Below are positions 8,879-46,290 of a stretch of DNA of 59,700 bases, in pieces (position 1 is the stretch's first letter; each line of letters begins with the position of its first letter). Both the position numbers and the translations under genes were made by a program. The DNA is from Alistipes finegoldii (GTDB lineage Bacteria > Bacillota > Clostridia > Christensenellales > UBA1242): positions 1-59,700 of the forward strand of contig CAVEBU010000004.1 of NCBI GenBank assembly GCA_963614045.1, read 5' to 3'. A model generated the notes under the pieces. The model did not search any database, was not told the DNA's origin, and worked only from the letters and a program-made list of their open reading frames with translations.

Positions 8879-9052
8879 ATTTACCCCTTATGTTAATAAT
8901 TTACTCATTTTGCCGAGCAAAGCATACACATCTCATAGCAAGCAACTCCCAAGCGTTTCCGTCGAAATTTCTCCGCCGTAGAATTACCGCTCGCCACAAT
9001 TTCAATACAAAATCACATAAAAATGTGCATTACAACCACTATTCTGTTTTTT

Positions 9053-9081
9053 ATTATAGCACACTTTTTATTAAATTTCAA
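9053..9081 (-). promoter_or_regulatory. sigma-A type promoter with ~170-nt leader for the membrane-protein/rnj gene string
   Basis: Minus strand: TTGAAA (9076-9081), 17-nt spacer ending in TG, TATAAT (9053-9058). Confidence 0.55.
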
Positions 9082-9150
9082 GGATAAAACACAATTTTTT
9101 TTGACAAATCACAAATTTACTTAAAAGATGATGTTGTTGTTTAGATACAA

Positions 9151-9239
9151 GGGGGGCTTGGTGCGTGCGTTCGGCACGAACGCACACCGTCCCGCACAAG
9201 CGGGACGCAATACGCTTTCAGCGTATGCACCAAGCCCCC
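9151..9239. repeat. GC-rich four-way-junction repeat, copy 1
   Basis: Outer stem GGGGGGCTTGGTGC/GCACCAAGCCCCC enclosing three perfect hairpins: GTGCGTTCG-GCA-CGAACGCAC, CGTCCCGC-ACAA-GCGGGACG and ATACGCT-TTC-AGCGTAT. Confidence 0.85.
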
Positions 9240-9408
9240 GCCCCCGTTCTATTATTGAGGTGCAGGACACTGCGTATAATTATATAATGATTTTCGCTTT
9301 TGCTATTTTTTGGTTCGTTACGCTCACAACTCCCTCGAATATATGCTTATAAAAAACAATTCACTGTTACTCGTCACTTAAAAATTTGCGAAAAGTGATA
9401 TAAATTTG

Positions 9409-9437
9409 TTGCATTTAAAATTACTTTGTATTATAAT
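9409..9437 (+). promoter_or_regulatory. sigma-A type promoter placing the TSS at or next to the ATG of the 9444 gene (leaderless candidate)
   Basis: TTGCAT (9409-9414), 17-nt spacer, TATAAT (9432-9437). The ATG at 9444 is 7 nt after the -10 box, and no Shine-Dalgarno lies between. Confidence 0.5.
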
Positions 9438-11887: not shown

Positions 11888-11948
11888 ATCCCAATTTTAA
11901 GTAAACACCCAAATTTGATAAAGTATAGAAGTCAATCTCTACAAAAAC

Positions 11949-12035
11949 GGGGGGGCTTGGTGCGTGCGTTCGTGCCGAACGCACCCCGCCCCGCAAAAGC
12001 GGGGCAAATACGCTGAAAGCGTATGCACCAAGCCC
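11949..12035. repeat. GC-rich four-way-junction repeat, copy 2
   Basis: Same architecture as copy 1. H1 loop is TGC, H2 is GCCCCGC-AAAA-GCGGGGC, H3 loop is GAA. On the minus strand it is followed by GTTTTT. Confidence 0.85.
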
Positions 12036-12152
12036 TCTAGTTCTATAAATCAAAGACACACCGCAGTATCCAACTCACACAAACTGATTTGGCAATATAA
12101 AACTAACCCCACTCCAAACGGGTGAGATTTTTGGATACGATTTATGCTATTC

Positions 12153-12454: not shown

Positions 12455-13981
12455 CTAGGCAGAAGGAGTCACTACTTTATTAGGTTCCATCTTAGTACCA
12501 CCTACAGTTACAGTACCGAGTGTAGCATTGTTGTAGTTAACATACAAAATGTTCAAGTTAACCTTTGACTCCTCACTCTCAGCCTCAACCTTTTCGTACT
12601 TAACATCACCAGAAACTGTCACATTAGGAACATCTTCGGCACCCAACCAGTCACAAGCTTCTATAACGATTACGTCACCAGTAGAGCAACAACCATTGTC
12701 ATAATGCTTAAATTCTGAACCCGTCCACCAAGCCTTAAACGTACCACCATTGATTGTAGTGTTACCACTCTTAATGTAAAGAGCTGTCGCACCATAAAGC
12801 GTAGCACCGGTAATATTTACAGTGTCGTTATTTGCAACATACAACGCAACTGTAGCTTTTGAAGTAATATCAGCATCGCTATTGATTGCCAATGTTACAC
12901 CACCTTCGTCTTTATAAGGGCTAGTACTTACACCATTTGAGTAAGAATAAATCTTACCGTTAATTACCACATTTGATTGCTTGAAAGCAAACACACCTTG
13001 AGCGTTAGAATAGATTGAAGCACCTTTCTCCATATTAAATGTTGAGTGGTCAACAATAACTGCTGTTGCCAATCCATTTCTAAGGTCACCAATATAATCA
13101 GCCTTTGAACCAGATGCCATTGTCATTTTTGCACCGTCAAACAGGCCTACTGCCGCATTAAGAACGTTAGTCTCTACTACAGCACACTTGTTAATAACTT
13201 GTGTTCCATTTCCCAGCACAACTTGTGGGTGATACAACTCTTTATCATTTACATCACCAGCAACAAAGACAGTCAAAGGATAATCTGTTGTTGTAGCAAC
13301 AACTTTGTCTAGTGTCAAGATACCGTTGTGGTCTTTTACCCACGCAACCCAATACTTTGACTCGATTGCACCATTTGTAATAGTAAACTTTGGAGCAGTG
13401 TTGCTCTCGCTTGCACAAACATCAAAGAACTTATCACCCTTTAATGTGAATCCACCAAGATCCATCACACAATCAAAGTCAATTGTAAAGTATGGGCAAT
13501 CATCATAACCAGCAGTTGATTCTGTAAGAGTTATATCATTTTTAAGCACGATTTTGCTTGTCTTTGATTCAATTGCAGTCTTAAATTCTGCTTCAGTTGA
13601 AACTTCCACAGCAACATCCCAGTGAGCGTAAACAGTTGCTTCTTTTTGTGAACCCAAAGCGTCGCTAACTTTAGTAACTTCCTTGCCACCCTCTTTCTCT
13701 GTATACCAACCAGCAAAAGTATATGCAGTTGTAGTAGTATCTGCTCTATTTACAGACTTCTTGGCATCCTTAAGGATATCTGCTAACTTAGAGTCCTTGG
13801 TTGCATCATTTTTAACAAAAGTTGTCTCAGTAGCAGTAGTACCAAAATATCCGCCGTTTGCGTCAAAGGTAACTTTGTAAGTTTCTGCGCCACAACCAGC
13901 AAGACCAAAAAGACATGCAGTAATCAAAATGCTGCAAATCATTAAAGGCAATGCCCATAATTTCTTTCCAAAAGAATTCAT
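12455..13981 (-). CDS. surface lipoprotein with Listeria-Bacteroides type repeat and a probable beta-helix region
   Basis: Signal peptide with lipobox LAGC. YKVTFDANGG...YTFAGWYTEKEGGKEV...VYAHW matches the Listeria-Bacteroides (Flg_new) repeat. The rest is rich in G/N/T/V short beta-strand repeats. Confidence 0.65.
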   Translation of the reverse strand: MNSFGKKLWALPLMICSILITACLFGLAGCGAETYKVTFDANGGYFGTTATETTFVKNDATKDSKLADILKDAKKSVNRADTTTTAYTFAGWYTEKEGGKEVTKVSDALGSQKEATVYAHWDVAVEVSTEAEFKTAIESKTSKIVLKNDITLTESTAGYDDCPYFTIDFDCVMDLGGFTLKGDKFFDVCASESNTAPKFTITNGAIESKYWVAWVKDHNGILTLDKVVATTTDYPLTVFVAGDVNDKELYHPQVVLGNGTQVINKCAVVETNVLNAAVGLFDGAKMTMASGSKADYIGDLRNGLATAVIVDHSTFNMEKGASIYSNAQGVFAFKQSNVVINGKIYSYSNGVSTSPYKDEGGVTLAINSDADITSKATVALYVANNDTVNITGATLYGATALYIKSGNTTINGGTFKAWWTGSEFKHYDNGCCSTGDVIVIEACDWLGAEDVPNVTVSGDVKYEKVEAESEESKVNLNILYVNYNNATLGTVTVGGTKMEPNKVVTPSA

Positions 13982-14066
13982 TTTAAACTTCTCCCTTTAC
14001 TTGAATTATCGTATTTTAAGAAATCTGACAACTCGACTTTTCGGGCTATCATATCTTATGTTCATT

Positions 14067-14095
14067 ATTATAACATGCAAAAATTTTTAAGTCAA
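14067..14095 (-). promoter_or_regulatory. sigma-A type promoter of the lipoprotein gene
   Basis: Minus strand: TTGACT (14090-14095), 17-nt spacer, TATAAT (14067-14072). Confidence 0.6.
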
Positions 14096-14371
14096 CTCTT
14101 TTCACATCATTTTTAATATATTTTTTTATACTTTAATTATTTTTAAAACATTGTTTGTAAAAAACTTTGTATTTACTTATCAAAAAACGCAAGATTTAAG
14201 CCAAATAGCACGAATTTTGAGGATAAAACTACCCGCAAAATTCTCTTCTTTTCGACCTTTAACACGCATAATTTACAAGTTTAGCCACACAAAAATATCA
14301 TTTGCCCGCAACAAATTTATAAAAAACCAAAAGAAATATATGCTTATTGCTTTGATTTTGTGACAAAATTT

Positions 14372-15502
14372 TTAAACAAACTCAAAAAGTTTACTGATAA
14401 TTGTGTTTGTCATATAAAAATTTGTGGCGACAGCGAAGCCATTTTTGATTTCGAGTAATTTTGCGGTATTTACTAGATAATCGATAGATTTGCGGTGTTC
14501 AGCAAGAAAATCTGCATTAAAAATAGTGTTGTATTCCTCTATATTTAGCCCTTTGGCAGTGCGAAGTGCTAGCATAATAAACTCTTCCTTTGCGGTCGTA
14601 AGATTTTCTTTTTCGATATTGATTGCGGACTGTGTGGGATTTGACAGATATGCATTAAAATCTGCAGTATTTTCCCAATGCGTGCCGTCCATAAAGGAAA
14701 ACGCACCTAGCCCCACCCCCAAATACTCTTTTCTATGCCAGTAATTTAGATTGTGTTTTGACTCATACCCAAGCTTTGAAAAATTGCTAATTTCATACCG
14801 CAAAAACCCAAATTTTGCCAAATAGTCCACCACGAAATCATACATATTAACGACGTCAAGCGGGTCGGGTTCGCTTAACTTACCCGCAAGAATTTTTTGC
14901 GTCAGCGGAGTATTAGGCTCGTTAATTAGGCTGTATGCCGAAATATGCGTAATCGGTAATTCTAGCACGTTGTCCACCAAATTTTTGACGTCAAAAATCG
15001 TTTGCGTAGGAATTCCAATCATTATATCAATATTGATGTCGTTTATGCCCACATTTTTTGCCAACCGAACAGCACGAACGCAATCAAGAAAATCGTGCTT
15101 TCTATTGAGCAACGCCAAGTGTTTCGGGTTAATCGCTTGCAAGCCCAAACTCAATCTATCACAGCCAGCACTCGCAAATTCACTCGCTTTGCTTTCGTCG
15201 AAACTATTTGGGTTTGCCTCAATCGTGATACTTTCGCAAGCGGACAAGTCGTAATTTGTACGCACGCAGTCAAGAATTTGCGTAATTGAATTTTCAGGCA
15301 AAACACTTGGAGTACCACCACCTATATACACAGTATAGACTTGTCTGTCCGCATATTTTTTGCTTTTATCGGCGATTTCCTTACAGAGAGCGTCAACATA
15401 AATTTGTTTTTTCTCTTTGTCTGCTACGAAAGAACAAAAATCGCAATAGCTACATTTTGACACGCAAAAAGGGATATGGATATATAGAGAAAATTTGCTC
15501 AT
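14372..15502 (-). CDS. hemW: radical SAM heme chaperone HemW (HemN-like, oxygen-independent coproporphyrinogen oxidase family)
   Basis: 376 aa. CVSKCSYCDFC radical-SAM CxxxCxxC near the N-terminus and GGGTPS motif. Sits directly downstream of lepA, as is conserved in Bacillota. Confidence 0.85.
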   Translation of the reverse strand: MSKFSLYIHIPFCVSKCSYCDFCSFVADKEKKQIYVDALCKEIADKSKKYADRQVYTVYIGGGTPSVLPENSITQILDCVRTNYDLSACESITIEANPNSFDESKASEFASAGCDRLSLGLQAINPKHLALLNRKHDFLDCVRAVRLAKNVGINDINIDIMIGIPTQTIFDVKNLVDNVLELPITHISAYSLINEPNTPLTQKILAGKLSEPDPLDVVNMYDFVVDYLAKFGFLRYEISNFSKLGYESKHNLNYWHRKEYLGVGLGAFSFMDGTHWENTADFNAYLSNPTQSAINIEKENLTTAKEEFIMLALRTAKGLNIEEYNTIFNADFLAEHRKSIDYLVNTAKLLEIKNGFAVATNFYMTNTIISKLFEFV

Positions 15503-15513
15503 ATTCCACCCCT

Positions 15514-17313
15514 TTAATCGATTTTTAGAATAGATATAAAGGCATCACTCGGCACTTCAACTGAACCGATATTCCGCATTTTCTTTTTGCCTTCTTTCTG
15601 TTTCTCGAGCAGTTTGCGTTTTCTTGTTACGTCACCGCCGTAACACTTCGCCAGAACGTCCTTGCGGTACGCTTTAACCGTTTCACGAGCGATAATTTTA
15701 CCCCCGATTGCAGCCTGAATCGGCACTTCAAATTGCTGTCTAGGAATAACGTCCTTTAACTTCTCCGCCATTGCTTTGCCCCGCTCGTACGCTTTGTCCG
15801 TATGCACAATCATACTCAACGCATCACAGACTTCGCCTTTTAGCAAAATATCAAGCTTAACTAACTTGCTAGGGCGATAATCACTTATTTCGTAATCAAG
15901 ACTTGCGTAGCCACGAGTTTTGCTTTTTAAGTTGTCGAAGAAGTCGTAAATTATCTCATTTAGCGGAATTGAGTAGTCTAGTCTTACCCGCTTTTCGTCC
16001 AAATACTCCATACCAGTATTTTCGCCACGACGTTCCACACACAAATCCATAATTGCCCCCATATATTCGGGCGGAGTAAACACACGCATATTTACATAAG
16101 GTTCTTCCATACGGCTAATCAGCGAAACATCAGGGAGATTACTTGGGTTACTAACTTCCAGCATTTCGCCGTCCGTTTTGTAAACGTGATAATTCACACC
16201 TGGCGCAGTTGTGATTATATCAAGGTTGAATTCCCGCTCAAGTCGTTCTTGAATAATTTCCATATGCAAAAGTCCCAAAAATCCACAACGGAACCCGAAC
16301 CCTAGCGCAATAGATGTTTCGGGCTGATATTCTAGCGAACTGTCGTTGAGCTTGAGTTTTTCCAAAGCATCCTTTAATTCGCCGTATTTACTGCCGTCCA
16401 CTGGGAAAATTCCGCTAAACACAACGGGCTGAACTTGTTTGTATCCCGCCAAAGACTCACTTGTGGGATTTTCCGCATTGGTAATTGTGTCGCCAACCCT
16501 CGCCTCACTAACTTTCTTGATGCTTGCCGAAATGTAACCAACTTCGCCCGCCAACAGCTCTTCGCAGGGCTTTGCTTTTGGCGTAAAATAACCGACTTCA
16601 GTTACTTCAAAAGTATTGTTCGAATGCATAAATTTGATTTTGTCGCCAGGACGAACCGAACCATCAAATACACGCACTAGACAAATTGCGCCCTTGAAAT
16701 TGTCGTAATAACTATCAAACACAAGACATTTTAACGGCGCATCTTCCTTGCCTTTTGGCGCAGGAAATTCCTCCACAATCGCTTCTAGCACCTTGTCAAT
16801 GTTTATACCCTCTTTCGCCGAAATGCAAGGAGCGTGCATAGCGGGAATTGAAATTACGTCCTCAATTTCCTTTTTAACTTTTTCAGGCTCGGCACTCGGC
16901 AAGTCGATTTTGTTTATAACAGGCAAAATTTCTAGACGGTTGTCTAGCGCAAGATGAACATTTGCCAAAGTTTGCGCTTCCACCCCTTGCCCTGCGTCAA
17001 CGATTAAAATCGCCCCCTCGCAAGCGGCGAGCGAACGGCTTACCTCATATGTAAAATCGACATGACCTGGCGTGTCTATAAGATTTAGGATATACTCCTG
17101 ACCTTTATAATTATATTTCATACGAGTCGGAGTAAGCTTGATAGTTATACCCCGTTCACGCTCCAAATCCATACTGTCAAGCAACTGTTCTTGCAAATCT
17201 CTAGTAGCGACTGTGCCTGTAAATTCTAGCAGTCTGTCCGCCAAAGTACTCTTGCCGTGGTCGATGTGCGCAACTATACAAAAGTTGCGAATATATTTTT
17301 GTCTGTCTTGCAT
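15514..17313 (-). CDS. lepA: translation elongation factor 4 (LepA)
   Basis: 599 aa. [23 protein letters not shown]1 motif, DTPGHVDF G3, NKID G4, characteristic C-terminal domain. Confidence 0.97.
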
Positions 17314-17465
17314 AAATGCCCCTTATTCTTAAAATTTATCAAATTATACATAAAATATCACAAAAAATCAATAGAAATTACCCTAAATTGCTAAAAAATA
17401 TGTGATTTTACTAGCAAAATGCAAAATTTTTTGATATAATAGAAAAAATTGAATAAGGGATGTTT

Positions 17466-18206
17466 ATGGAAAAAAGTTTAGATTGGTTATTTAATAAGTT
17501 TATTGCGCACAAGGGATTTTGGAATGAGAGCGCACCCGAAAATTCACTTGGCGCAATGGAAAACGCTATCAAAAAGCAATACGCAATCGAAATGGATGTG
17601 CGTATGCTTGCTGACGGCGAATTGGCAGTTTTTCACGACAAAGAATTGTCAAGGCTCACAGGTCAAGACGGGTATTTGTCAAATGTTAAAAGTGACGAAC
17701 TCAAGAATTACTTTCTTAACGGTACAAAATTCACTATCCCTACCCTAAAAGATGCGCTTGAGTTTATTAACGGCAGAACACCCGTTATCCTCGATTTAAA
17801 AAATGAAGCAACAAATTCGGGCGCTTTTGAAAGTAAGATTTTGGAAACGATTGCATCTTATTCGGGCGATATCGCAGTAATGTCTTTTAACCCGCTCACT
17901 TTGGAGTGGTTTAACAAAAATGCGCCAAATATCCCTCGTGGACTACTCAGCACACGTTGGACAAAAGATTTGGCGGACAGACCCGACTCTTTTATAAAAA
18001 GATTTGTAACATCGCACAATATTTTGCGCAAACGTGCGAACCCCGACTTTTTGGCATATAACATAAAGCAGTTGCCCACAATTAGAACTCGCATATTCAA
18101 GAAAATTCTACTGATTGGCTGGACTGTAGAAACGCAAGAAGAATATCTTGAAAAGATAAAATATGTGGACAATATCATATTCGAGGGTTTTGAGCCTAAA
18201 ATTTAA
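17466..18206 (+). CDS. glycerophosphodiester phosphodiesterase (GDPD) family protein
   Basis: HKG...ENSLGAMENAI...IEMDVRMLADGELAVFHD matches the GDPD catalytic H/E/D pattern. ATG 17466 preferred over 17460 on RBS spacing. Confidence 0.8.
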   Translation: MEKSLDWLFNKFIAHKGFWNESAPENSLGAMENAIKKQYAIEMDVRMLADGELAVFHDKELSRLTGQDGYLSNVKSDELKNYFLNGTKFTIPTLKDALEFINGRTPVILDLKNEATNSGAFESKILETIASYSGDIAVMSFNPLTLEWFNKNAPNIPRGLLSTRWTKDLADRPDSFIKRFVTSHNILRKRANPDFLAYNIKQLPTIRTRIFKKILLIGWTVETQEEYLEKIKYVDNIIFEGFEPKI

Positions 18207-18242
18207 TTAGCCTAAAATGGCTTTTTATTTTTACAAAAGGGG

Positions 18243-18270
18243 TTGACAAAAAATTTTTTTATGGTAGAAT
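18243..18270 (+). promoter_or_regulatory. sigma-A type promoter
   Basis: TTGACA (18243-18248), 16-nt spacer, extended -10 TGgTAGAAT (-10 box at 18265-18270). Confidence 0.6.
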
Positions 18271-18300
18271 AGTGTTACTAAATTTAAAAGAGGTAAAATT

Positions 18301-19305
18301 ATGGAACAAGACAAAAAATTAATGCACCCACAAGCGAAGCACTTCACCGAACAGTCGCTATCATTTTTGACAGAACAAGTAACCACAAAGAAGCGTGAGC
18401 TAAATGAATTGGGCGAAATCGTAATCAGAAATGCAAAAATGGAATTGTATATCGCACAAACGGAAGGCGTCCCTGTTGAAGATATGTCAGATGTTGCTCA
18501 AGCATTATACAACAATCCTGACTTGCGTATTGAAAGTGCTTTCACAGGCAAGGTTGTTTATATCGAGAACGGCAAAAAAACAGAATTTTTGGACACAAGC
18601 AAAGGTGAGGAAACTCTTGTAGTAAGGGTTAATGAATCTACTACAAACGCAGGCGAATCTAAAGAAGTTTCGGAAGAGTTCTTTGACGGCACGCAAGACG
18701 GCAATACCGCAGAACAAGACGAATCTACAGGCGATTCTGTAGAAGTTTATCCACTTGCAGTCGTAGAGCCTATTGTCAAGCATTTTGACAAATTAAAGCC
18801 TGCTTACACTGGCGACATTGCAACAAAAATTTACAAAACTTCCGTTTTGAAGCCTGCAAGAGAATTGGTTAAAGCTTTGATTGATGAGCAGGTTCAAATC
18901 GCTCTCAATAATTTGACAACCAACGCACACGCAAAGCCACCTGTTCGCACGGTTACATACAAGAATTCTTTGGGTACTTTTAAGAATTACTCTCAAATTT
19001 CCTCCGTTTATGAGGCTGTAATTAGAGGCTCGAAATTTGCTCAATTTAAGTTTGACGACCTTGAGGATGTCGCTCACAAAGTTGCAACACTCGACTCACT
19101 CGCCTACACTATTATTAGTAATGCCGAGCAGTTCAAGGAGGACAATGCCCAAATTTTGAGTAGCAAGAACCTGACCGCCGAAAACATAAGGCAATATTAC
19201 ACCGCTTTGGGTAAATTTGAGTCAACCAAAGGAAGCAAGACTTCTGGTCAAGCAGTTATTAAAGCGGAAATTTCAGACGATGTTGCAAATATTATGGCAA
19301 AATAA
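18301..19305 (+). CDS. hypothetical protein, acidic, no recognisable domain
   Basis: 334-aa ORF with a strong promoter, AAGAGGT RBS and a terminator downstream. Confidence 0.6.
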   Translation: MEQDKKLMHPQAKHFTEQSLSFLTEQVTTKKRELNELGEIVIRNAKMELYIAQTEGVPVEDMSDVAQALYNNPDLRIESAFTGKVVYIENGKKTEFLDTSKGEETLVVRVNESTTNAGESKEVSEEFFDGTQDGNTAEQDESTGDSVEVYPLAVVEPIVKHFDKLKPAYTGDIATKIYKTSVLKPARELVKALIDEQVQIALNNLTTNAHAKPPVRTVTYKNSLGTFKNYSQISSVYEAVIRGSKFAQFKFDDLEDVAHKVATLDSLAYTIISNAEQFKEDNAQILSSKNLTAENIRQYYTALGKFESTKGSKTSGQAVIKAEISDDVANIMAK

Positions 19306-19331
19306 TATTTTATTAAATCTATAAACTTATA

Positions 19332-19369
19332 AACCCCGAAAGTCATCTAACTCTCGGGGTTTAATTTTT
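19332..19369. terminator. rho-independent terminator (between convergent genes)
   Basis: Stem AACCCCGAAAG/CTCTCGGGGTT (one mismatch), 8-nt loop, then TAATTTTT. Confidence 0.6.
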
Positions 19370-19422
19370 AACTTCCTATTTAATCTTGCAAGAGAATTTC
19401 TAGCTTTTTTGTATTTTTGCAG

Positions 19423-20580
19423 TTAATTCGTAATCATATTATCTATGTAAATGCCGAAGCCTTTTGTCGGGTCGTTTACAAATACATGCGTGATTGCACC
19501 TATCAATTTGCCGTTTTGGACAATTGGGCTTCCGCTCATTCCTTGAATTATCCCGCCAGTGATTTTCAATAAAATTTCGTCCGTCACCTTGAAAACGAGA
19601 TTTTTTTGCTTGCCCGCACCCGTAAAATTCGTCTTGATAATTTCAATTTCATAAGGGCGGATATTTTTCCCGTCAATACAAGAGTAAATCGTCGCTTTAC
19701 CAGGTTTCACAGTCAAACGCCCGCCCAAATCCACCTTAAGCCGATTTTCGCTATCGAAATTTTGTAGGTCGATGTTGCCGTAAACACCTGTTTCGCAATT
19801 TTTGTCAACAGAACCGATTTCACTTTTGCTGCGGGGCAAAATCGCTTTAATTTCACCCGGCAAACCCCTTTCCGCCTTTTTGACGCCAAGCACAACGCAT
19901 TTTTGCGCCTTACCCGAATCCACCTCAAAAATCGCTTGCGAATTCGGTTCAACTATAGGATGACCTAGCGCCCCAAATCGCCCCGTTTGTGTGTCAATAT
20001 ATGTAACAGTCCCGACGCCATTAAGCCCCAGACGAACCCAAACACCCAGTTTATACTGCTTTGTTAGTTCATCAAATTTCGGCTTTATAACCCGCTCAAT
20101 TTTTGTCGCATCACGCACGAGTTTTACGCATACTTCTTTGCCCTTTTTCTCGCCGTTTAAAGTGGAAGCAATATCACTAACACCGCAAATTTCCTTGTCG
20201 TCAATCGCATAAATCACGTCACCCGCCTGCAAATCAGCATTTTCCTCGCCCAATCCCTTGTTTGACACCACAAGCACACCCTTGCCGTCGTATTCGAAGC
20301 CCCACACGTCACCCCCAATATAGACTTGCCTGTTCTCAATTGCGTTGACGCTGTGAATTTTGACAGTATTCATCAAAAGAAAATCGACAGTTTTATCCTC
20401 TTTGTTATACTTCGATTGAACAAGACTATTCACGTTTTGGCTGTAGTTTTGGTCACTTACAACCAAATTTTGTGGCATTAGAAAAACCTCGTCGAACGGA
20501 CGAGTCCAACCGCCAATAGCAAAGGCAATCGCCAAGCAAAAAGCAATACTCAAGCATATTTTACTTAATTTCATATCCAC
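19423..20580 (-). CDS. spoIVB: SpoIVB peptidase (S55 family, sporulation signalling protease)
   Basis: 385 aa with N-terminal membrane anchor, a PDZ-like middle region (LQAGDVIYAIDDKEI), and C-terminal GMSGSPIVQNGKLIGAITHVF serine-protease block. GTG 20580 or ATG 20574 start. Confidence 0.9.
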   Translation of the reverse strand: MDMKLSKICLSIAFCLAIAFAIGGWTRPFDEVFLMPQNLVVSDQNYSQNVNSLVQSKYNKEDKTVDFLLMNTVKIHSVNAIENRQVYIGGDVWGFEYDGKGVLVVSNKGLGEENADLQAGDVIYAIDDKEICGVSDIASTLNGEKKGKEVCVKLVRDATKIERVIKPKFDELTKQYKLGVWVRLGLNGVGTVTYIDTQTGRFGALGHPIVEPNSQAIFEVDSGKAQKCVVLGVKKAERGLPGEIKAILPRSKSEIGSVDKNCETGVYGNIDLQNFDSENRLKVDLGGRLTVKPGKATIYSCIDGKNIRPYEIEIIKTNFTGAGKQKNLVFKVTDEILLKITGGIIQGMSGSPIVQNGKLIGAITHVFVNDPTKGFGIYIDNMITN

Positions 20581-20739
20581 TTATCCTCTTGGGCTAGTTT
20601 GCGTTTTTACTGCCATTTTTATGCTGAAAAATTAAGTAAAATTATGTTATTTTTTGACAACTGATTTTGTATGCACGCAAGTTTTTTAAACAAAAAAAGA
20701 CGCCCTCTCCCTCGAGAAATTGCGCCTAATTTTGCATAA

Positions 20740-21198
20740 TTATAAAGTAGTCATAAACTCCTTTACACGCTCAAGAACCAATTCGGCACTTTTTGCGTCC
20801 GCCGTAATCAAAAGCACTGTGTCATCGCCGTAGACAATCCCCATTACGCCCGAAATTGTTTGCTTGTCAATTACCGACGCAATAATGTTTGCCACGCCAC
20901 GCAAAGTTCTAATCACGATTTGGTTACATACTGCAGCAACGCTCAACACTGATTCCTTAAAAATCGTGTTAATCTTGCCCGCATAACCATGACTATCGCC
21001 TTCCACGATAGCATACTTGTATTTCTTTTGTTCCCCAGCAACTTTAAAGAGACCCAAATCTTTTATATCTCTACTTATAGTCGCCTGAGTAACTTTGAAG
21101 CCAGCAGATTTCAATGCGCTGACTAATTCGTCTTGAGTATCAATTTCAAACTTATTGATAATCTCAATAATTTTCGCTTGACGAGATGTCCTTGCCAT
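20740..21198 (-). CDS. argR: arginine repressor ArgR/AhrC
   Basis: RQAKIIEIINKFEIDTQDELVSALKSAGFKVTQATISRDIKDLGL winged-helix N-domain, plus a C-terminal oligomerisation domain with GDDTVLL. Start moved to ATG 21198 (AAGGGTGG RBS). Confidence 0.92.
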   Translation of the reverse strand: MARTSRQAKIIEIINKFEIDTQDELVSALKSAGFKVTQATISRDIKDLGLFKVAGEQKKYKYAIVEGDSHGYAGKINTIFKESVLSVAAVCNQIVIRTLRGVANIIASVIDKQTISGVMGIVYGDDTVLLITADAKSAELVLERVKEFMTTL

Positions 21199-21214
21199 AA
21201 TTATTACCACCCTT

Positions 21215-21230
21215 TTGTATATTTATACAA
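21215..21230. promoter_or_regulatory. ARG-box-like palindrome just upstream of argR
   Basis: TTGTATA-TT-TATACAA is a 16-bp AT-rich palindrome located between a TATAAT box (21235-21240, minus strand) and the argR RBS. Confidence 0.45.
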
Positions 21231-21340
21231 TCCTATTATATAACAAAATTTATAATTATGCAATACCTTTTTGCATTTTTATGCATTTTTTTGCAAATTT
21301 TTTAGAAAAAAGGGTGTTTTTGGGGTAAAAATGGATAATT

Positions 21341-21958
21341 TTAGGAGTTTTTTGTCCTAGTTTTATGCTTTTTTGATACAAAAATTAGCTTTCGGGCAAC
21401 AAAAATCACGATTTGTGTCGAGTGATTTAATGCATAACTTTTGCCAATTGCCTTCGCTGAAATCGTAATAGACGCAATCAACGAGTTAAGTAGCAAGGAA
21501 ATTATCAGCGAATTCGCTCCAGGGAAGCAACTTAGCAAAATCGCCGAAATTGTTACACCTCCCGCACCGCACAAAATTCCGCAAATGTCCCCCACAACAT
21601 CGCCACAAATACACGAAACCTTGTCCGCATTTTTGACCATTTTTATTGCGACGTCAGCGCCTTTTTGGTTGCGTTTGCTCAGTTCTAATAACGGTTTTAT
21701 ACTGCACGCCGTAACCGCCATTGCGATTATGTCAAAAAACACGTTCGCCAGCATCAACAAAATTATCAATATCAGCGCTAGCCCCAAACTGCTGTGCGCA
21801 AGCATTAATTCGGAAACAAGCGCAAACAAAATAGATAACCCCAAAGAAATCAAAAAAACCTCAATTAGCCACCTCAAATTCCTTTTAGGCTTATCCTTTT
21901 TGTTGCTCAAAACCCGAATCATTTGCTTCTCTACTAAATTCGCTCGTTCCTTTTTCAC
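21341..21958 (-). CDS. membrane protein, DUF21 (CNNM-type transmembrane domain)-like, without CBS domains
   Basis: 205 aa with four hydrophobic segments. The pattern LANVFFDIIAMAVTA...LSKRNQKGADVAIKMVKN resembles DUF21. GTG start without a clear RBS, so the start is uncertain. Confidence 0.35.
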   Translation of the reverse strand: MKKERANLVEKQMIRVLSNKKDKPKRNLRWLIEVFLISLGLSILFALVSELMLAHSSLGLALILIILLMLANVFFDIIAMAVTACSIKPLLELSKRNQKGADVAIKMVKNADKVSCICGDVVGDICGILCGAGGVTISAILLSCFPGANSLIISLLLNSLIASITISAKAIGKSYALNHSTQIVIFVARKLIFVSKKHKTRTKNS

Positions 21959-22045
21959 ATATTAATAATATGCCCCCACCCTCACAAAAATGTATATTTA
22001 TTCTTTTTCGCTCCCGCAAAAATAAAATAGTAAAAGCCACATCCT

Positions 22046-22122
22046 CTTCGTCATCCTGACCCACCATCGCAGTATATCTCTTGAAAGATCTGTGAGCGAA
22101 GCGAACCCAGATAACAAGCAAG
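22046..22122. repeat. second intergenic repeat family, copy A
   Basis: Shares CTTCGTCATCCTGA (22046-22059) and AACAAGCAAG.CGA (22113-22125) with 59630-59677. Contains GAGCGAAGCGAA. Confidence 0.5.
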
Positions 22123-22198
22123 TCGAAAACTTGCAAAGGTAAAATAATTTTATCCTCTTATATTTAAAGAAAATTTTATCCTTTAATTATATTTATTA

Positions 22199-22225
22199 GG
22201 GGTTCAGCGGTTTACCGCTGAACCC
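22199..22225. repeat. GC-rich perfect hairpin (REP-like)
   Basis: GGGGTTCAGCGG-TTTA-CCGCTGAACCC, an 11-bp perfect stem with no flanking T-run, so not an obvious terminator. Confidence 0.6.
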
Positions 22226-22267
22226 AAATTTAAATAAAGGATGAAATATTTTATCCTCTTAAAAAAC

Positions 22268-22357
22268 GGGGGGGCTTGGTGCGTGCGTTCGTGCCGAACG
22301 CACACCGCTCCGCAACAGCGGAGCAAAATACGCTGAAAGCGTATTCACCAAGCCCCC
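22268..22357. repeat. GC-rich four-way-junction repeat, copy 3
   Basis: Same architecture as copies 1 and 2. H1 loop is TGC, H2 is GCTCCGC-AACA-GCGGAGC, H3 loop is GAA, with one mismatch in the outer stem (T at 22345). On the minus strand it is followed by GTTTTTT. Confidence 0.85.
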
Positions 22358-22524
22358 ACCCCTTTGTCTAAAGTTACCAGGGTTGAAACACTTGCATATA
22401 ATTATATCTAGCCTTTCATGTTTTAGTGTGCGACTTGTAAAGTTTGTGTTGAAACTTAAAAACCGCACAACTCAAAACAAAACAAATTTTTTAAAAAATT
22501 TTTTTAAAAATCGTGAACATATGT

Positions 22525-22553
22525 TTGACAACAAAAATTTTTTGTGATATACT
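22525..22553 (+). promoter_or_regulatory. sigma-A type promoter of the HTH gene
   Basis: TTGACA (22525-22530), 17-nt spacer ending TGtga, TATACT (22548-22553). Confidence 0.6.
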
Positions 22554-22576
22554 AATCAAAAATTAGGAGGAAAATT

Positions 22577-22966
22577 ATGAATGTATATTTAATGTTTAGT
22601 CTATTACTTGATTTAATGCGACACGAAAAAATTACAGCAAAATTTGTAGCCGAAAAGCTCGAACTTAGCACCCGCACGATTTATCGTTATGTGGACAGTT
22701 TGAGCGCAAATGGTGTGCCAGTTTCCACGTCAACAGGGCGAAATGGCGGGATTTTCTTGACTCAAAAGTATGATTTGAATTCAATTTATTTCACTGATGA
22801 CGACTTAAAATTGATGTGCGGCTTGCTGAAGAATTCTACCGACCCAAACGCCTCTTTTGTAATGCAAAAACTACTCTTAATCGGTGATTATAGAAAAAAT
22901 CTCCAAAAAACAACAATGAGTAGCGAAACAAAGCAAGTCGTAGATTTTTCTCAAAAATTTTTTTGA
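22577..22966 (+). CDS. HTH-domain transcriptional regulator (HTH_11/YafY N-terminal type, short)
   Basis: 129 aa. ITAKFVAEKLELSTRTIYRYVDSLSANGVPV is a typical DeoR/HTH_11 helix-turn-helix. AGGAGG RBS. Confidence 0.65.
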   Translation: MNVYLMFSLLLDLMRHEKITAKFVAEKLELSTRTIYRYVDSLSANGVPVSTSTGRNGGIFLTQKYDLNSIYFTDDDLKLMCGLLKNSTDPNASFVMQKLLLIGDYRKNLQKTTMSSETKQVVDFSQKFF

Positions 22967-32006: not shown

Positions 32007-34631
32007 CTACCTTTCAAGAGATTTTGATACTACAGGCTTGTTCGCTTGATAGTCAGCAATAATCTTGACAAGCTCGGCAGCGGACTTGTTCATTTTGTTA
32101 ATTTCCGACTTGCTAGCGCCACGCTCTTTTGCTTCAACCGCTTCTTGCTTGAGTTTCGCTATCAAATTTTTAATCTTTTTGATATTACGTGTGCGTTCTG
32201 CTTTGCTTGCATTGGTAGCTTTCTCCATAGTCTTAAGAGTTTCGTCAATTTGAGCTCTCAATTCCTCTTGTTGTTTCTTCAAACGCTCGTTTTCGGCATT
32301 GATTTGCTTTTGCAAAGCCTCCAATTCCTCATTTGCTGTCGCCTTTTTCTCTTCTGCAATCGCTTTTTCTTCCGCTTTTGACTTATTAATCTCTTCGATT
32401 TCCTTCTTTAAAGCATCTACGGTAGATTTAACGTCCTCGATTGCTTCTTTATTCTCTTTATGCACTGCCTTTAATTTCTTATCAATTTCTTTTACTTCTT
32501 CTTTTGAAGCTTCTTTATCGACGTCTTTTTCTTCTTTTTTTGCGTCTTCTTTAGCTTTTTCCTCTTTTTCTTGCGTAACATCGATATTTTTTGCAGGTTT
32601 TATATTCTTTTTGTTCTTGAGTTGAGCATTATCGCTTTTCTTTTTAACAGGCTTTTGCTCCTCAGTAACAACAGGAATTTCCTCTTGTGGTTGTGTCGGA
32701 ACAAAATTCTCAACAGGTTGAGGCTGAGCATAATCAACTTGAGGTTGCTCAACAAATTCCGTTTCAATAGGTTGAGCATTTTCTTCATAAGTAAATTCAG
32801 TAGGCGCTTGCGGGTATTCTACATGTGATTCGTATTGCGGTTGTTCAACGAACATATCAGGCTGTTGCTCAACATACGGCTGTTCAATATACGCTTGTTC
32901 GGTCGGCATAACAGGTTGCTGTTCAAACTGCTGAGTAGGTTCGCTAAAACCACCATTTGCAAAATTTTCCTCCGCAACAAACTGGTCAGCGCTTACATTT
33001 GCAGGTGCATTTTCTTCAACAAATTGGTCTTGCGGAGCTGACGGAACTGCTGTAAACTCGTCCACTTTTGCCTCATTTACAGCATTTTCATCTACAGCAA
33101 CCATGTCAGGATCGTAATGCTCAGGCTCTTTGATAATCGCCTCAATATTTACCGCATTTTTACCCCGCTTTTTGTTCATATCCTTGATAATCGTCTTGGC
33201 TTTGCGTAATTCGTGACGCAAATTTTCCACCTCGATTGAGCGAGCTTCCACCAAATTATCACGTTTTTCAATGTCTTTATTGTACTCTTGAACCTTCGCT
33301 TTCAGCCTTGCGATAACCATTTCAAGATCACGCATCTGCTCAGAATTGTCACGAGTAATCTTGTCCGTAAGCTCTTGATAAACTTTTGTCGCAAAAGTAT
33401 CATATTCAGATTTAAGTGCAGTTTCCACTTCTTCTTTGTTTGTTTCCACAATTTCCTTGCGTTTTTGAATCTCGACCTTAAGCGCATCGATTTGAACTTG
33501 CTCTTTGTTTAGCATTGTCTCAAGGTCTTTTTCAAGTTTCGCTTTTTTATTCATTTCATCAGTTGCCTGTCGCCTGTTGTAGTTGATTTCCACACGGTTG
33601 GTCGTTTCCGCCATAGCTTTATCAAGTCGCTCCAAATTCTCTTTAATCGCCTGCAATTTCCTATTCGCTTCACGCTCAATATCTTCTTTGTTGGCTTCAG
33701 ATTTTTGCAACTGCTTCTCCAAATCAGTGATTTCTTGCTGAATTTGAATTTTGCTCATCAAGAATTTTTCGCTTTCCGTTACAGCACGCTCAATTAATTG
33801 CGCACCGTTTACACCCAAATCGGCAAAATTATATGGGCTGTGATTTGCGTCCTCTTGCTTCGCCTTTTCCAAAAGTCTTTGCTCTTCCAAAGCACGTTTC
33901 TCCAAATATTCACGCAAAACAGGGATTCCTGCATTGATTTCTTTCGGAGTGAATAGCAATTCGTAGTCCACATAATCAGGCATTGCGTTAGTACACTTGT
34001 CAATATTTCTCATAAAATCAGTGAATTCGTCATAAAAACTATTCGTCACATTGTTATAACGCAACTGCACAATCATACAAAACACGCACCCAAAAAGCCC
34101 GACAATAAGCGGGATTGAAAACAATTGTAAAAGCACCGAAATGCTCAAATACTTGTCACCACTGCCGATAGCCATATAGGACACCGCACCGATACAAGAC
34201 AAGATTGCTAACACAATCGTCGTGTAAGTAATTTGCTTGCGAACAGACTTATAGGCGCTGTTGTACAACGGTCTTTTTACACAATATTCCACCGTCATAT
34301 AGCGACTCGGACTGCCCTCACGCTCCAACATAAACAACTGCCACCTATCCCTAAAGCGACGAGGCAATTTCCTCATACGATTATGGAATTCCACAAGATT
34401 TGCATCGTTTACCTTGGGATTTTCCTTTAAATATTTATTAATTCTATGCATTTGCCGAATTGCTCGACTTTCGTAACACCACACGAGGCGAACAATCGCT
34501 GCGACAAAAATTACCGCCAGTAACCCTACCGATACAAATAGGATAACGTCCAAGTTCATACTTGAAACGATGCTCTTGAAGAAATCAACAATAGCATCCA
34601 AAGCGGTTTCTGCACCTAATAATGAAATCAT
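32007..34631 (-). CDS. membrane-anchored long coiled-coil protein with Q/P/E-rich linker, unknown function
   Basis: 874 aa with three hydrophobic helices in the first ~190 aa. Then come heptad-like K/E/Q/L-rich sequence, degenerate (F/Y)VEQP(Q) repeats at about aa 540-650, and a K/E-rich C-terminal coiled coil. Confidence 0.6.
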   Translation of the reverse strand: MISLLGAETALDAIVDFFKSIVSSMNLDVILFVSVGLLAVIFVAAIVRLVWCYESRAIRQMHRINKYLKENPKVNDANLVEFHNRMRKLPRRFRDRWQLFMLEREGSPSRYMTVEYCVKRPLYNSAYKSVRKQITYTTIVLAILSCIGAVSYMAIGSGDKYLSISVLLQLFSIPLIVGLFGCVFCMIVQLRYNNVTNSFYDEFTDFMRNIDKCTNAMPDYVDYELLFTPKEINAGIPVLREYLEKRALEEQRLLEKAKQEDANHSPYNFADLGVNGAQLIERAVTESEKFLMSKIQIQQEITDLEKQLQKSEANKEDIEREANRKLQAIKENLERLDKAMAETTNRVEINYNRRQATDEMNKKAKLEKDLETMLNKEQVQIDALKVEIQKRKEIVETNKEEVETALKSEYDTFATKVYQELTDKITRDNSEQMRDLEMVIARLKAKVQEYNKDIEKRDNLVEARSIEVENLRHELRKAKTIIKDMNKKRGKNAVNIEAIIKEPEHYDPDMVAVDENAVNEAKVDEFTAVPSAPQDQFVEENAPANVSADQFVAEENFANGGFSEPTQQFEQQPVMPTEQAYIEQPYVEQQPDMFVEQPQYESHVEYPQAPTEFTYEENAQPIETEFVEQPQVDYAQPQPVENFVPTQPQEEIPVVTEEQKPVKKKSDNAQLKNKKNIKPAKNIDVTQEKEEKAKEDAKKEEKDVDKEASKEEVKEIDKKLKAVHKENKEAIEDVKSTVDALKKEIEEINKSKAEEKAIAEEKKATANEELEALQKQINAENERLKKQQEELRAQIDETLKTMEKATNASKAERTRNIKKIKNLIAKLKQEAVEAKERGASKSEINKMNKSAAELVKIIADYQANKPVVSKSLER

Positions 34632-45720: not shown

Positions 45721-45747
45721 AAAAACCCTTTATTTACGGGCTTTTTG

Positions 45748-45788
45748 TGGTGCGCTAAAGAAAACTCGAACTCCTAACCTTTGGTTCC
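45748..45788 (-). pseudogene. tRNA-Arg 3'-half fragment (anticodon position 36 to CCA), diverged
   Basis: 41 nt align with tRNA positions from GGAACCAAAGG... to ...GCGCACCA with 6 mismatches, all in the T-loop/T-stem 3' strand and the acceptor 3' strand. No matching 5' half. Confidence 0.75.
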
Positions 45789-45949
45789 TGTTTTGCCAAA
45801 GCAAAGTGCCGTCGCAAGCCTTGACACCACTTGCAAGCAATTGTGTCAATCTCCTTGCTAGGCATACCCCAACGCACACACTTCGCGACGCTTCAGCCGA
45901 ACGTAATGCAATTTCGTTTGCGGTCTACGAAACCAAAGGGGTTATATAA

Positions 45950-45976
45950 ACAAAAAACGCTGTCCATATAGACAGC
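45950..45976 (-). terminator. short hairpin plus T-run inside unit 1
   Basis: GCTGTC-TATATG-GACAGC followed by GTTTTTTG on the minus strand. Confidence 0.45.
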
Positions 45977-45980
45977 ATTT

Positions 45981-46021
45981 TGGTGCGCTAAAGAAAACTC
46001 GAACTCCTAACCTTTGGTTCC
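45981..46021 (-). pseudogene. tRNA-Arg 3'-half fragment, second copy
   Basis: Same as 45748-45788. Confidence 0.75.
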
Positions 46022-46182
46022 TGTTTTGCCAAAGCAAAGTGCCGTCGCAAGCCTTGACACCACTTGCAAGCAATTGTGTCAATCTCCTTGCTAGGCATAC
46101 CCCAACGCACACACTTCGCGACGCTTCAGCCGAACGTAATGCAATTTCGTTTGCGGTCTACGAAACCAAAGGGGTTATATAA

Positions 46183-46209
46183 ACAAAAAACGCTGTCCAT
46201 ATAGACAGC
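46183..46209 (-). terminator. short hairpin plus T-run 4 nt after the tRNA-Arg CCA end
   Basis: GCTGTC-TATATG-GACAGC followed by GTTTTTTG on the minus strand. Confidence 0.5.
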
Positions 46210-46213
46210 ATTT

Positions 46214-46290
46214 TGGTGCGCCATAAGAGGCTCGAACTCCTAACCTTTGGTTCCGTAGACCAACGCTCTATCCAATTGAGCTAATGGCGC
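46214..46290 (-). tRNA. tRNA-Arg (anticodon ACG), CCA encoded
   Basis: Minus-strand sequence GCGCCAT-TA-GCTC-AATTGGATA-GAGC-G-TTGGT-CTACGGA-ACCAA-AGGTT-AGGAG-TTCGAGC-CTCTT-ATGGCGC-ACCA folds as a canonical 77-nt cloverleaf. Confidence 0.95.

What the first reader, a model, noticed from the sequence alone, without database searches (positions are those of the whole stretch)
9151..9290. Previously unrecognised-looking GC-rich four-way-junction repeat (three copies) with compensatory base changes and individually flipped hairpin loops
Copies lie at 9151-9239, 11949-12035 and 22268-22357. They share an 11-13-bp outer stem (GGGGGCTTGGTGC ... GCACCAAGCCCCC) enclosing three perfect hairpins: H1 GTGCGTTCG-nnn-CGAACGCAC, H2 of 7-8 bp, and H3 ATACGCT-nnn-AGCGTAT. 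This is a cloverleaf-shaped junction whose stems are far too long for a tRNA. H2 differs between copies only by paired substitutions (GTCCCGC/GCGGGAC, GCCCCGC/GCGGGGC, GCTCCGC/GCGGAGC), so two positions co-vary and pairing is retained. The H1 and H3 loops of copy 1 (GCA, TTC) are the exact reverse complements of those in copies 2 and 3 (TGC, GAA). Hairpin order and the H2 loop are not inverted, so single hairpin modules have flipped, as expected from palindrome-templated strand switching or hairpin-directed recombination. The elements are strongly GC-rich islands in AT-rich intergenic DNA. A diverged tail of about 50 nt (ACAC.GC.TATAATTATAT in copies 1 and 3) suggests the unit extends to the right. 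Three copies in 60 kb implies a genome-wide family. It could be a REP/MITE-like DNA element, a structured RNA, or both.
Basis: seen in the sequence. Interest (0 to 1): 0.7.

Follow-up and report, generated by a model that had tools for sequence, protein, structure and literature searches.

The report
Four-way-junction palindromic intergenic repeat family
Three copies of a roughly 185-base repeat, whose GC-rich 88-base core folds on either strand into one stem closing three perfect hairpins, lie between housekeeping genes of one uncultured gut Clostridia species; it is a real, uncatalogued, species-restricted member of the small palindromic-repeat kind (REP/BOX/MITE-like), and neither what moves it nor what it does is known.

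Summary
Three same-strand copies (cores 9152-9239, 11953-12035, 22270-22357) fold into an 11-13-bp closing stem around three perfect hairpins. Folding z-scores are -7 to -10 as RNA or DNA, on both strands. H2 carries two compensated pair changes. The H1 and H3 loops of copy 1 are exact reverse complements of those in copies 2 and 3.

New here: the repeat unit is about 185 nt. Diverged AT-rich arms lie on both sides, not only on the right. In the core, 15 of 21 unpaired columns vary against 6 of 72 paired columns (p = 2e-8). The stems are therefore constrained while loops, linkers and arms drift or flip.

All three copies sit at the same sites in every same-species assembly I could fetch. About 110 kb from five or six congeners holds none. 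There is no Rfam, phage, plasmid or literature match. The core has no target-site duplication and no REP tag, and the window has no transposase.

Best reading (0.5): a lineage-specific nested-palindrome DNA repeat that acts and spreads as a folded single strand. Template switching accounts for the loop flips and paired changes. A structured RNA on the minus strand or a host DNA site remain possible.

The parts
9110..9151 (+). Copy 1, left arm (AT-rich, CACAAATTTACTTAAAAGATGA...)
   Evidence: Local alignment to the left arm of copy 3 scores 14 against a null of 8.1 +/- 1.5, p = 0.0035; alignment A3.
9152..9239 (+). Copy 1, four-way-junction core: 13-bp closing stem, H1 9 bp (loop GCA), H2 8 bp (loop ACAA), H3 7 bp (loop TTC)
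   Evidence: cmsearch 108.7 bits on +, 63.3 bits on -.
9240..9287 (+). Copy 1, right arm, ending in the box ACACTGCGTATAATTATAT (9267-9285), which contains the palindrome TATAATTATA
   Evidence: p = 0.0015 against copy 3. No homology beyond it. Not conserved with the closest relative L192, whose homology starts only at about 9342, at the promoter of the downstream gene.
11906..11952 (+). Copy 2, left arm (ACCCAAATTTGATAAAG...CTCTACAAAAAC) plus G run
   Evidence: Alignment to the left arm of copy 3 scores 16 against a null of 8.1 +/- 1.4, p = 0.0005.
11953..12035 (+). Copy 2, core: 11-bp closing stem, H1 9 bp (loop TGC), H2 7 bp (loop AAAA), H3 7 bp (loop GAA)
   Evidence: cmsearch 105.6 bits.
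12036..12060 (+). Copy 2, remnant of the right arm (GTTCTATAAATCAAAG, shared with copy 1); the rest has decayed and is polymorphic between strains
   Evidence: Five SNPs and a 4-nt indel at 12043-12075 between strains.
22221..22269 (+). Copy 3, left arm (ACCCAAATTTAAATAAAGGATGAAAT...CTCTTAAAAAAC) plus G run
22270..22357 (+). Copy 3, core: 12-bp closing stem with one C/T mismatch next to the junction, H1 9 bp (loop TGC), H2 7 bp (loop AACA), H3 8 bp (loop GAA)
   Evidence: cmsearch 109.8 bits.
22358..22409 (+). Copy 3, right arm, ending in ACACTTGCATATAATTATAT (22388-22407)

Best explanation
The three loci are members of a lineage-specific family of interspersed, non-coding DNA repeats. Each unit is about 185 nt: an AT-rich left arm, an 83-88-nt GC-rich nested palindrome, and an AT-rich right arm ending in TATAATTATAT.

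Shown:
- The core folds identically on both strands as a closed four-way junction.
- The stems are conserved, while loops, linkers and arms diverge.
- The family is fixed at the same sites within the species and absent from the sampled DNA of congeners.

Inferred:
- The element acts and is copied as a folded single strand of DNA, for example on the lagging-strand template. A trans-acting enzyme encoded elsewhere would recognise the junction, so only copies with intact stems give rise to new copies.
- Intrastrand template switching at the hairpins explains the exact inversion of the H1 and H3 loops, the one-step paired changes in H2, and the absence of mismatches.
- When transcribed from the minus strand, the closing stem followed by GTTTTT(T) in copies 2 and 3 probably also blocks or ends transcripts. 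I treat this as a side effect and not as the reason the family exists.
For: (1) Both-strand perfection. 99% standard pairs, only one G-T, and near-equal stability as RNA or DNA on + and -.

(2) Constraint on stems only. 6 of 72 paired columns vary, and 4 of those are the two compensated pairs. 15 of 21 unpaired columns vary (Fisher p = 2e-8). Arms are 43-64% identical against 83-94% for the core.

(3) Two 3-nt loops replaced by their exact reverse complements, with hairpin order kept. This is the signature of template switching between inverted-repeat arms (PMC8794818; PMC8604942 abstract). It also shows that loop sequence is not what is read.

(4) Positions do not fit a dedicated RNA. Copies 1 and 3 lie upstream of both flanking genes in divergent spacers. 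Copy 2 lies between convergent genes, and at least the 508-aa one (12409-12376) has a terminator of its own. The flanking genes have their own promoters, conserved with relatives: 9081-9053, about 9409-9437, and 22525-22553.

(5) Distribution typical of parasitic small repeats. All three copies are at identical sites in every same-species assembly that covers those sites (two NCBI MAGs and four Logan runs in all). There is no copy and no comparably stable fold in about 110 kb from five or six congeners with LepA 91-97% identical. About 5.5 copies would be expected at the window's density. In L192, the closest relative (84% on the neighbouring protein), 304 nt downstream of DUF4364 and about 400 nt upstream of the phosphoesterase gene hold no element.

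(6) Short-read contigs end inside the core, as expected for a multi-copy repeat.

(7) Housekeeping context, and no hit in phage, plasmid or viral collections.
Against: - No mobilising enzyme was found.
- There is no target-site duplication at the core. No terminal inverted repeats were recognised for the 185-nt unit, and no empty site at sequence resolution was obtained, because the spacers of relatives are not alignable.
- Stem sequences, not only pairing, are nearly invariant across copies whose unpaired positions are heavily diverged.
- No strain polymorphism hit a paired position, apart from the unstable G run at the base of the closing stem.
- The last two points could equally mean host-level purifying selection, that is, a function, or gene conversion between copies.
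- Only three copies were available, so the shared orientation (p = 0.25) and the covariation (63 of 500 shuffles) carry little weight.
Confidence: 0.5

Rival explanations
1. A structured RNA made from the minus strand. It would be either a multi-copy small RNA gene (TATAAT in the palindromic box TATAATTATA, then about 30 nt, then the junction, then a U run) or a cis-acting RNA module that ends or insulates transcripts and blocks exonucleases.
For: On the minus strand the closing stem is followed by GTTTTTG (copy 2), GTTTTTTA (copy 3) and, more weakly, TTGTAT (copy 1). The right arm carries a perfect TATAAT readable on both strands at a similar distance from the junction in copies 1 and 3. Very stable RNA folds. 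Stems are conserved between copies and, in the strains seen, unchanged except for the G run at the base of the closing stem. All copies face the direction in which most genes of the window run.
Against: I found no acceptable -35 hexamer upstream of the minus-strand TATAAT in copy 1 or 3 by eye, and the consensus scan lists no minus-strand promoter there. Copy 2 lacks the box altogether. Loops invert freely and there is no conserved unpaired nucleotide (15 of 21 unpaired columns vary), which is unlike known functional RNAs. Only one G-U in 108 cells. Two of three copies are not at gene 3' ends, and next to copy 2 at least the 508-aa gene has a terminator of its own. No Rfam family matches. A 62-nt branched 'loop' is atypical for intrinsic terminators (own knowledge).
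Confidence: 0.2
2. A host DNA-level site. Negative supercoiling between divergent promoters would extrude the nested palindrome as a cruciform-like structure. Alternatively, its four different perfect inverted repeats would be bound as double-stranded operators by dimeric proteins, for chromosome organisation or promoter insulation.
For: Each hairpin is a perfect inverted repeat with a 3-4-bp spacer. For such sites spacer orientation is irrelevant, which is consistent with the flips. Stem sequences, not only complementarity, are conserved across copies. Two copies lie between divergent promoters, one of them 70 nt upstream of a strong conserved promoter. DNA folding is very favourable.
Against: A 13-bp closing repeat 62 nt apart has no obvious role for double-stranded binding. 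H2 changes are compensated rather than avoided. The family is absent from congeners that have the same flanking genes and promoters, so it is not needed for their expression. No candidate binding protein was identified.
Confidence: 0.15
3. Inert relics: leftovers of one past burst of a repeat, now evolving neutrally. The perfect stems would be maintained only mechanically by hairpin-templated correction.
For: Template switching alone can keep arms complementary and can invert loops. The arms are decaying and the right arm of copy 2 is polymorphic.
Against: Self-templated correction keeps complementarity but not sequence identity between copies. Yet 66 of 72 paired columns are identical in three copies whose unpaired columns are 71% variable. 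A 65% GC core persists in a 39% GC genome.
Confidence: 0.1

Closest known systems
REP / BIME / REPIN elements with RAYT transposases (Proteobacteria; PMC3733652)
   Same: Short GC-rich extragenic palindromes. Multi-copy and lineage-specific. Stems kept and loops free. Thought to act as folded single strands and to affect transcripts.
   Different: REPs are single 20-40-bp hairpins with an unpaired GTAG or CGTC tag, usually in inverted pairs and mostly downstream of genes. This element is an 88-nt closed four-way junction without either tag. Copies are singletons in one orientation, inside a 185-nt unit, two of three upstream of genes, in Clostridia. No RAYT was seen in the window, and the genome could not be tested.
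Pneumococcal BOX, RUP and SPRITE repeats (PMC3049150)
   Same: Firmicutes. About 100-200-nt non-coding interspersed repeats with extensive secondary structure. Present in one species, reduced or absent in relatives. Insertion sites stable between strains. Read as parasitic elements that affect co-transcribed genes.
   Different: No sequence similarity. BOX is modular (boxA-B-C) and RUP is an IS630-related MITE with terminal repeats and a TA duplication (own knowledge). None has a strict closing stem plus three perfect hairpins.
MITEs and related structured repeats (Correia, ERIC, bcr1 of the Bacillus cereus group; review PMC3184786)
   Same: Non-autonomous, intergenic, foldable and of similar size. 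The 13-bp closing stem could be read as terminal inverted repeats.
   Different: Homology continues outside the closing stem on both sides. There is no target-site duplication. No related IS is known.
IS200/IS605-type ends and their miniature derivatives (own knowledge)
   Same: Mobilised as single strands by recognition of hairpins. No terminal inverted repeats and no target duplication. Orientation tied to the replication fork.
   Different: Those have imperfect subterminal hairpins at each end. Here one central perfect four-way junction is flanked by arms. No TnpA or TnpB gene is nearby.
Template-switch (quasipalindrome) mutation at hairpins (PMC8794818; PMC8604942)
   Same: Explains exact loop inversion, simultaneous change of both partners of a pair, and perfection of stems.
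   Different: It is a mutational process, not an element family. It does not explain why the stem sequences stay the same between copies, or how copies spread.

Membership tests
REP/REPIN | Single 20-40-bp imperfect palindrome with an unpaired GTAG or CGTC tag at one end | tested here: not met
   The core is 83-88 nt with four helices. Its ends read GGGGGCTTGG / CCAAGCCCCC, with no GTAG or CGTC tag. Definition from PMC3733652.
REP/REPIN | Units commonly in close inverted pairs (REPIN doublets / BIME clusters) | tested here: not met
   Three isolated copies, all on the + strand, 2.8 and 10.3 kb apart.
REP/REPIN | A RAYT (Y1 transposase) gene in the genome, flanked by the repeats | not testable with these tools
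MITE | Terminal inverted repeats at the ends of the mobile unit | tested here: inconclusive
   The 11-13-bp closing stem is a perfect inverted repeat. However, homology between copies continues 45-50 nt outside it, and I saw no inverted repeat at the outer ends.
MITE | Target-site duplication flanking each copy | tested here: not met
   No direct repeat of 3 nt or more within 8 nt of either core end in any copy.
MITE | Presence/absence polymorphism with recognisable empty sites; a parent IS with the same ends | tested here: inconclusive
   All same-species assemblies have the copies. Relatives lack them, but their spacers are not alignable. No parent IS was found in the window, phages, plasmids or viral contigs.
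Rfam structured RNA families | Match to a curated covariance model | tested here: not met
   No hit at gathering score in the window. The best hits at E <= 10 are noise at 14-17 bits.
Intrinsic terminator | GC-rich hairpin followed at once by a U run, placed after a gene | tested here: inconclusive
   On the minus strand, G plus a U run of 5-6 follows the closing stem in copies 2 and 3, and a weak one in copy 1. The 'loop' is a 62-nt three-hairpin branch. Two copies are not behind genes. The convergent gene next to copy 2 has its own terminator at 12409-12376.
Integron attC | Imperfect palindrome with extrahelical bases and R/L boxes (RYYYAAC/GTTRRRY), in cassette arrays near an integrase | tested here: not met
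   Stems are perfect, no such boxes appear at the ends, and there is no integrase or cassette array in the window. Definition from own knowledge.

The most novel reading that the evidence does not exclude
The closed four-way junction itself is the recognised object of a still unknown structure-specific system of gut Clostridia. One version is a new kind of single-strand DNA mobile element whose enzyme reads a Holliday-junction-like fold rather than a simple hairpin. The other is a host protein or RNA system that uses these junctions as punctuation between transcription units. This family would be one sequence lineage of a much wider architecture class. Unchecked notes of this scan report the same 'closing stem plus exactly three hairpins' design, with unrelated sequences, in at least 63 other genomes.
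Probability: 0.15. Interest if true: 0.8.

Novelty: new variant of a known kind. Interest (0 to 1): 0.5.

Why it matters
Small palindromic repeats are well studied in Proteobacteria (REP/RAYT) and streptococci (BOX/RUP/SPRITE). For the uncultured Clostridia that dominate the gut, nothing comparable is catalogued.

This family shows an unusually strict design: one closing stem and exactly three perfect hairpins. Its evolutionary pattern is also clear, because stems are frozen while every unpaired base drifts or inverts.

Practical consequences:
- It is a clean natural example of template-switch loop inversion.
- It warns that compensatory changes in perfect palindromes do not prove an RNA function.
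- These repeats break short-read assemblies of the species.

If a dedicated enzyme or binding protein reads the junction, it would define a new structure-specific system.

Tried and rejected
Searches that did not find the family:
- A genome-contig scan and a metagenome-contig scan with GGGCTTGGTG-N55-80-CACCAAGCCC returned only chance matches and two unrelated repeat families.
- Viral contig scans with the stem pattern and with the H1 pattern found nothing related.
- blastn against phages and plasmids found no match.
- A concatenated peptide query made from three reading frames of the core, meant to catch spurious ORFs called over other copies, found nothing.
- An exact look-up of the 202-aa DUF4364 ORF failed because of a different start call.

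Ideas tested and dropped:
- The right-arm TATAAT box as the promoter of the downstream genes. Their real promoters lie elsewhere and are conserved with relatives, and homology between copies stops at the box.
- A conserved ORF through the element. The frames differ between copies.
- Arm-to-arm pairing that would make one long hairpin. It is not conserved between copies 1 and 3.
- A shared transposase end with the other GGGCTTGGTG-terminated families. I judge this a coincidence of the search pattern.
- Cluster look-up for organism names. None is held.

Full report
**What is there**

Exact coordinates of every helix were recomputed. The cores are 9152-9239, 11953-12035 and 22270-22357, all on the + strand.

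Each core consists of:
- a closing stem of 11-13 bp (GGGGGCTTGGTGC / GCACCAAGCCCCC);
- H1, 9 bp, GTGCGTTCG-nnn-CGAACGCAC;
- H2, 7-8 bp;
- H3, 7-8 bp, ATACGCT-nnn-AGCGTAT.

Linkers are 0, 2-3, 2-3 and 0 nt. Two diagnostic patterns occur three times each, where shuffles expect 0.03 and 0.00. A covariance model built from the copies finds only these three in the window, even with all filters off.

**The fold**

RNAfold returns the same closed four-way junction for all copies on both strands. Energies are -64 to -70 kcal/mol, z is -7 to -9.5, and none of 200 shuffles is as stable. With DNA parameters the same structure is found at -41 to -45 kcal/mol, z -8.6 to -10.2. In a sliding fold of the whole window the three elements reach -64 to -68 kcal/mol, and the next best stretch reaches -39.

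Of 108 pair cells, 99.1% are standard pairs, with one G-T and one mismatch. H2 carries two fully compensated changes. With three sequences the covariation measures are reached by 63 of 500 shuffles, so they are suggestive only.

**Loop flips**

The H1 loop is GCA in copy 1 and TGC in copies 2 and 3. The H3 loop is TTC against GAA. Both are exact reverse complements, while the order H1-H2-H3 and the H2 loop (ACAA, AAAA, AACA) are not inverted.

Three adjacent substitutions that happen to give the reverse complement, twice, in elements that otherwise differ little in their stems, cannot reasonably be independent point mutations (inference). Template switching between the arms of an inverted repeat is documented to invert loops and to change both partners of a pair in one event (PMC8794818; PMC8604942). 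This has two consequences. The flips show that DNA-level hairpin processes act on these elements. The compensated pairs cannot be taken as proof of selection on an RNA.

**The unit is larger than the junction**

Local alignments against shuffles show homology outside the closing stem on both sides.
- Left arms of about 45 nt: copies 2 and 3, p = 0.0005; copies 1 and 3, p = 0.0035.
- Right arms of about 50 nt ending in ACACTGCRTATAATTATAT: copies 1 and 3, p = 0.0015.

Copy 2 keeps only the first 20 nt or so of the right arm, GTTCTATAAATCAAAG. There is no homology beyond the box. The arm motifs occur nowhere else in the window or in the loci of relatives.

The unit is therefore about 185 nt: 9110-9287, 11906-about 12060, and 22221-22409. 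I found no inverted repeat between its outer ends. There is no direct repeat of 3 nt or more next to the core.

**Pattern of change**

Within the core, 6 of 72 paired columns vary, and four of those are the two compensated pairs. Of 21 unpaired columns, 15 vary (Fisher p = 2e-8). Pairwise identity is 83-94% in the core and 43-64% in the arms.

Between strains of the species, differences fall on:
- the H1-H2 linker (9186);
- the G run at the base of the closing stem;
- the arms and surrounding spacer, including five SNPs and a 4-nt indel in the decayed right arm of copy 2.

No other paired position is hit. Given the numbers, this within-species contrast is only a trend (my estimate is about 4 expected and 1 seen).

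So the stems, in sequence as well as in pairing, are held constant while the rest drifts. Self-templated correction alone would keep complementarity but not identity between copies. Something more is needed: selection for being copied, host selection, or gene conversion.

**Context**

The window is ordinary chromosome of a spore-forming Firmicute. It carries 16S rRNA, UDG, peptidase U32, RNase J, LepA, HemN-like, SpoIVB, ArgR, Ddl, HPF and AddAB. None of the 38 ORFs is a transposase, integrase or HUH nuclease. GC is 39%, with negative GC skew throughout and most genes on the minus strand.

- Copy 1 lies between divergent genes. It is 70 nt upstream of the -35 of a strong promoter (9081-9053, minus) that is conserved in two other species. 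It is 170 nt upstream of the promoter of the phosphoesterase-like gene, which is conserved with relative L192.
- Copy 3 also lies between divergent genes, 168 nt upstream of the promoter of an HTH gene.
- Copy 2 lies between convergent genes. The 508-aa gene has a canonical terminator of its own at 12409-12376.

On the minus strand the closing stem is followed by GTTTTTG (copy 2), GTTTTTTA (copy 3) or TTGTAT (copy 1). The palindromic box TATAATTATA offers a -10 hexamer on either strand. I found no convincing -35 for a minus-strand promoter, and copy 2 lacks the box.

**Distribution**

Exact-protein look-ups brought in contigs of the same species from two NCBI MAGs and four Logan runs. Every contig that covers a site carries the element there. 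Several Logan contigs end inside the core, which suggests further copies sharing 31-mers (inference). The scan's index reports one more look-alike in another piece of this genome (I could not see it).

Relatives were sampled through LepA (91-97% identical) and through the 266-aa neighbour protein (71-84% identical). This gave about 110 kb from five or six congeners. That DNA contains:
- no match to the model;
- no perfect closing-stem-plus-three-hairpin structure of any sequence (run on the loci held at that point, without L195 and L198);
- no fold below -50 kcal/mol.

At the window's density about 5.5 copies would be expected. In the closest relative (L192), the 304 nt after DUF4364 and the roughly 400 nt before the phosphoesterase gene lack the element. 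The spacers are otherwise unalignable, so these are not base-resolution empty sites.

Public collection scans with the closing-stem pattern found only unrelated sequences. Phage, plasmid and viral collections gave nothing.

**Comparison with what is known**

Rfam has no match. Paper searches found no description of four-way-junction repeats in Clostridia.

- REPs are single 20-40-bp hairpins with a GTAG or CGTC tag, often paired and mostly downstream of genes. These defining features are not met.
- MITE criteria: a target duplication is not met, and terminal repeats are ambiguous.
- The best analogy is with the pneumococcal BOX, RUP and SPRITE repeats. These are structured, species-restricted and stable between strains, and are read as parasitic elements that influence neighbouring transcripts.
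- Unchecked notes of this scan report the same architecture with other sequences in at least 63 other gut Clostridia genomes. I treat this as a lead, not as evidence.

**Verdict**

This is a real, uncatalogued, lineage-restricted nested-palindrome repeat. It most likely acts and spreads as folded single-stranded DNA, with template switching shaping its loops and paired changes (confidence 0.5). A minus-strand structured RNA (0.2), a host DNA site (0.15) and inert relics (0.1) are not excluded.

Noticed in passing
L053-L172 (metagenome Ga0224511 contigs, e.g. L058:5396-5487, L065:525-600): More than 45 copies of an unrelated MITE-like hairpin repeat of about 76 nt in a low-GC organism. Its ends are TCGA-GGGCTTGGTGCAAAACTATTGTAAC ... 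GTTACAATAGTTTTGCACCAAGCCC-TCGA, and it shares by chance the 11-nt GGGCTTGGTGC terminus with the element studied here.
   Followed up: partly
L070, L071, L080, L097, L108, L126, L131, L157, L161, L164, L165 (termite-gut metagenomes; also L024/L025, a Coriobacteriia MAG): Long palindromic repeats built from tandem modules GGGACAG(G)GGGGACGGGGCTTGGTG around an AT-rich tip. The number of modules varies between copies.
   Followed up: no
window 8879-9081 (minus strand): A strong promoter (TTGAAA-17-TATAAT with TG) and the start of a leader of about 200 nt (ACAGAATAGTGGT...) upstream of an unannotated 267-aa gene are conserved in two other species (L187, L191). No Rfam match; the rest of the leader is poorly conserved.
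   Followed up: partly
window 22140-22262: Three copies of ATTTTATCCT(C)TTA, partly with inverted partners (AAGGATGAAAT), and a perfect hairpin GGGGTTCAGCGG-TTTA-CCGCTGAACCC (22200-22226) lie just left of copy 3. The last ATTTTATCCTCTTA copy lies inside the element's left arm.
   Followed up: no
window 45745-46290: Two identical 233-bp tandem units, each ending in a diverged copy of the 3' part of the adjacent tRNA-Arg(ACG) gene (repeat finder D1/D7, ARAGORN). Already reported by another agent.
   Followed up: no
window 46731-59384 (minus strand): A single 4217-aa ORF with no Pfam family at E <= 1e-5. The 874-aa ORF at 32007-34631 and several ORFs of 260-420 aa are also without any family.
   Followed up: no
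window 12455-22577 compared with L044-L051, L187, L191, L195, L198: Gene order around lepA differs between this species and its congeners. Here SpoIVB-ArgR-CNNM lie upstream of lepA; in the congeners it is ftsY-smc-plsX. Here a Flg_new surface protein and DUF4364 lie downstream. Copy 2 sits at such a synteny breakpoint, copy 1 in a variable spacer, and the site of copy 3 could not be compared.
   Followed up: partly
window 11948 and 22266-22271; L180, L182, L193: The G run at the 5' base of the closing stem varies in length and sequence between strains (+2 G, G to A, a 3-nt deletion). This is either homopolymer slippage or assembly error in a G7 run.
   Followed up: partly
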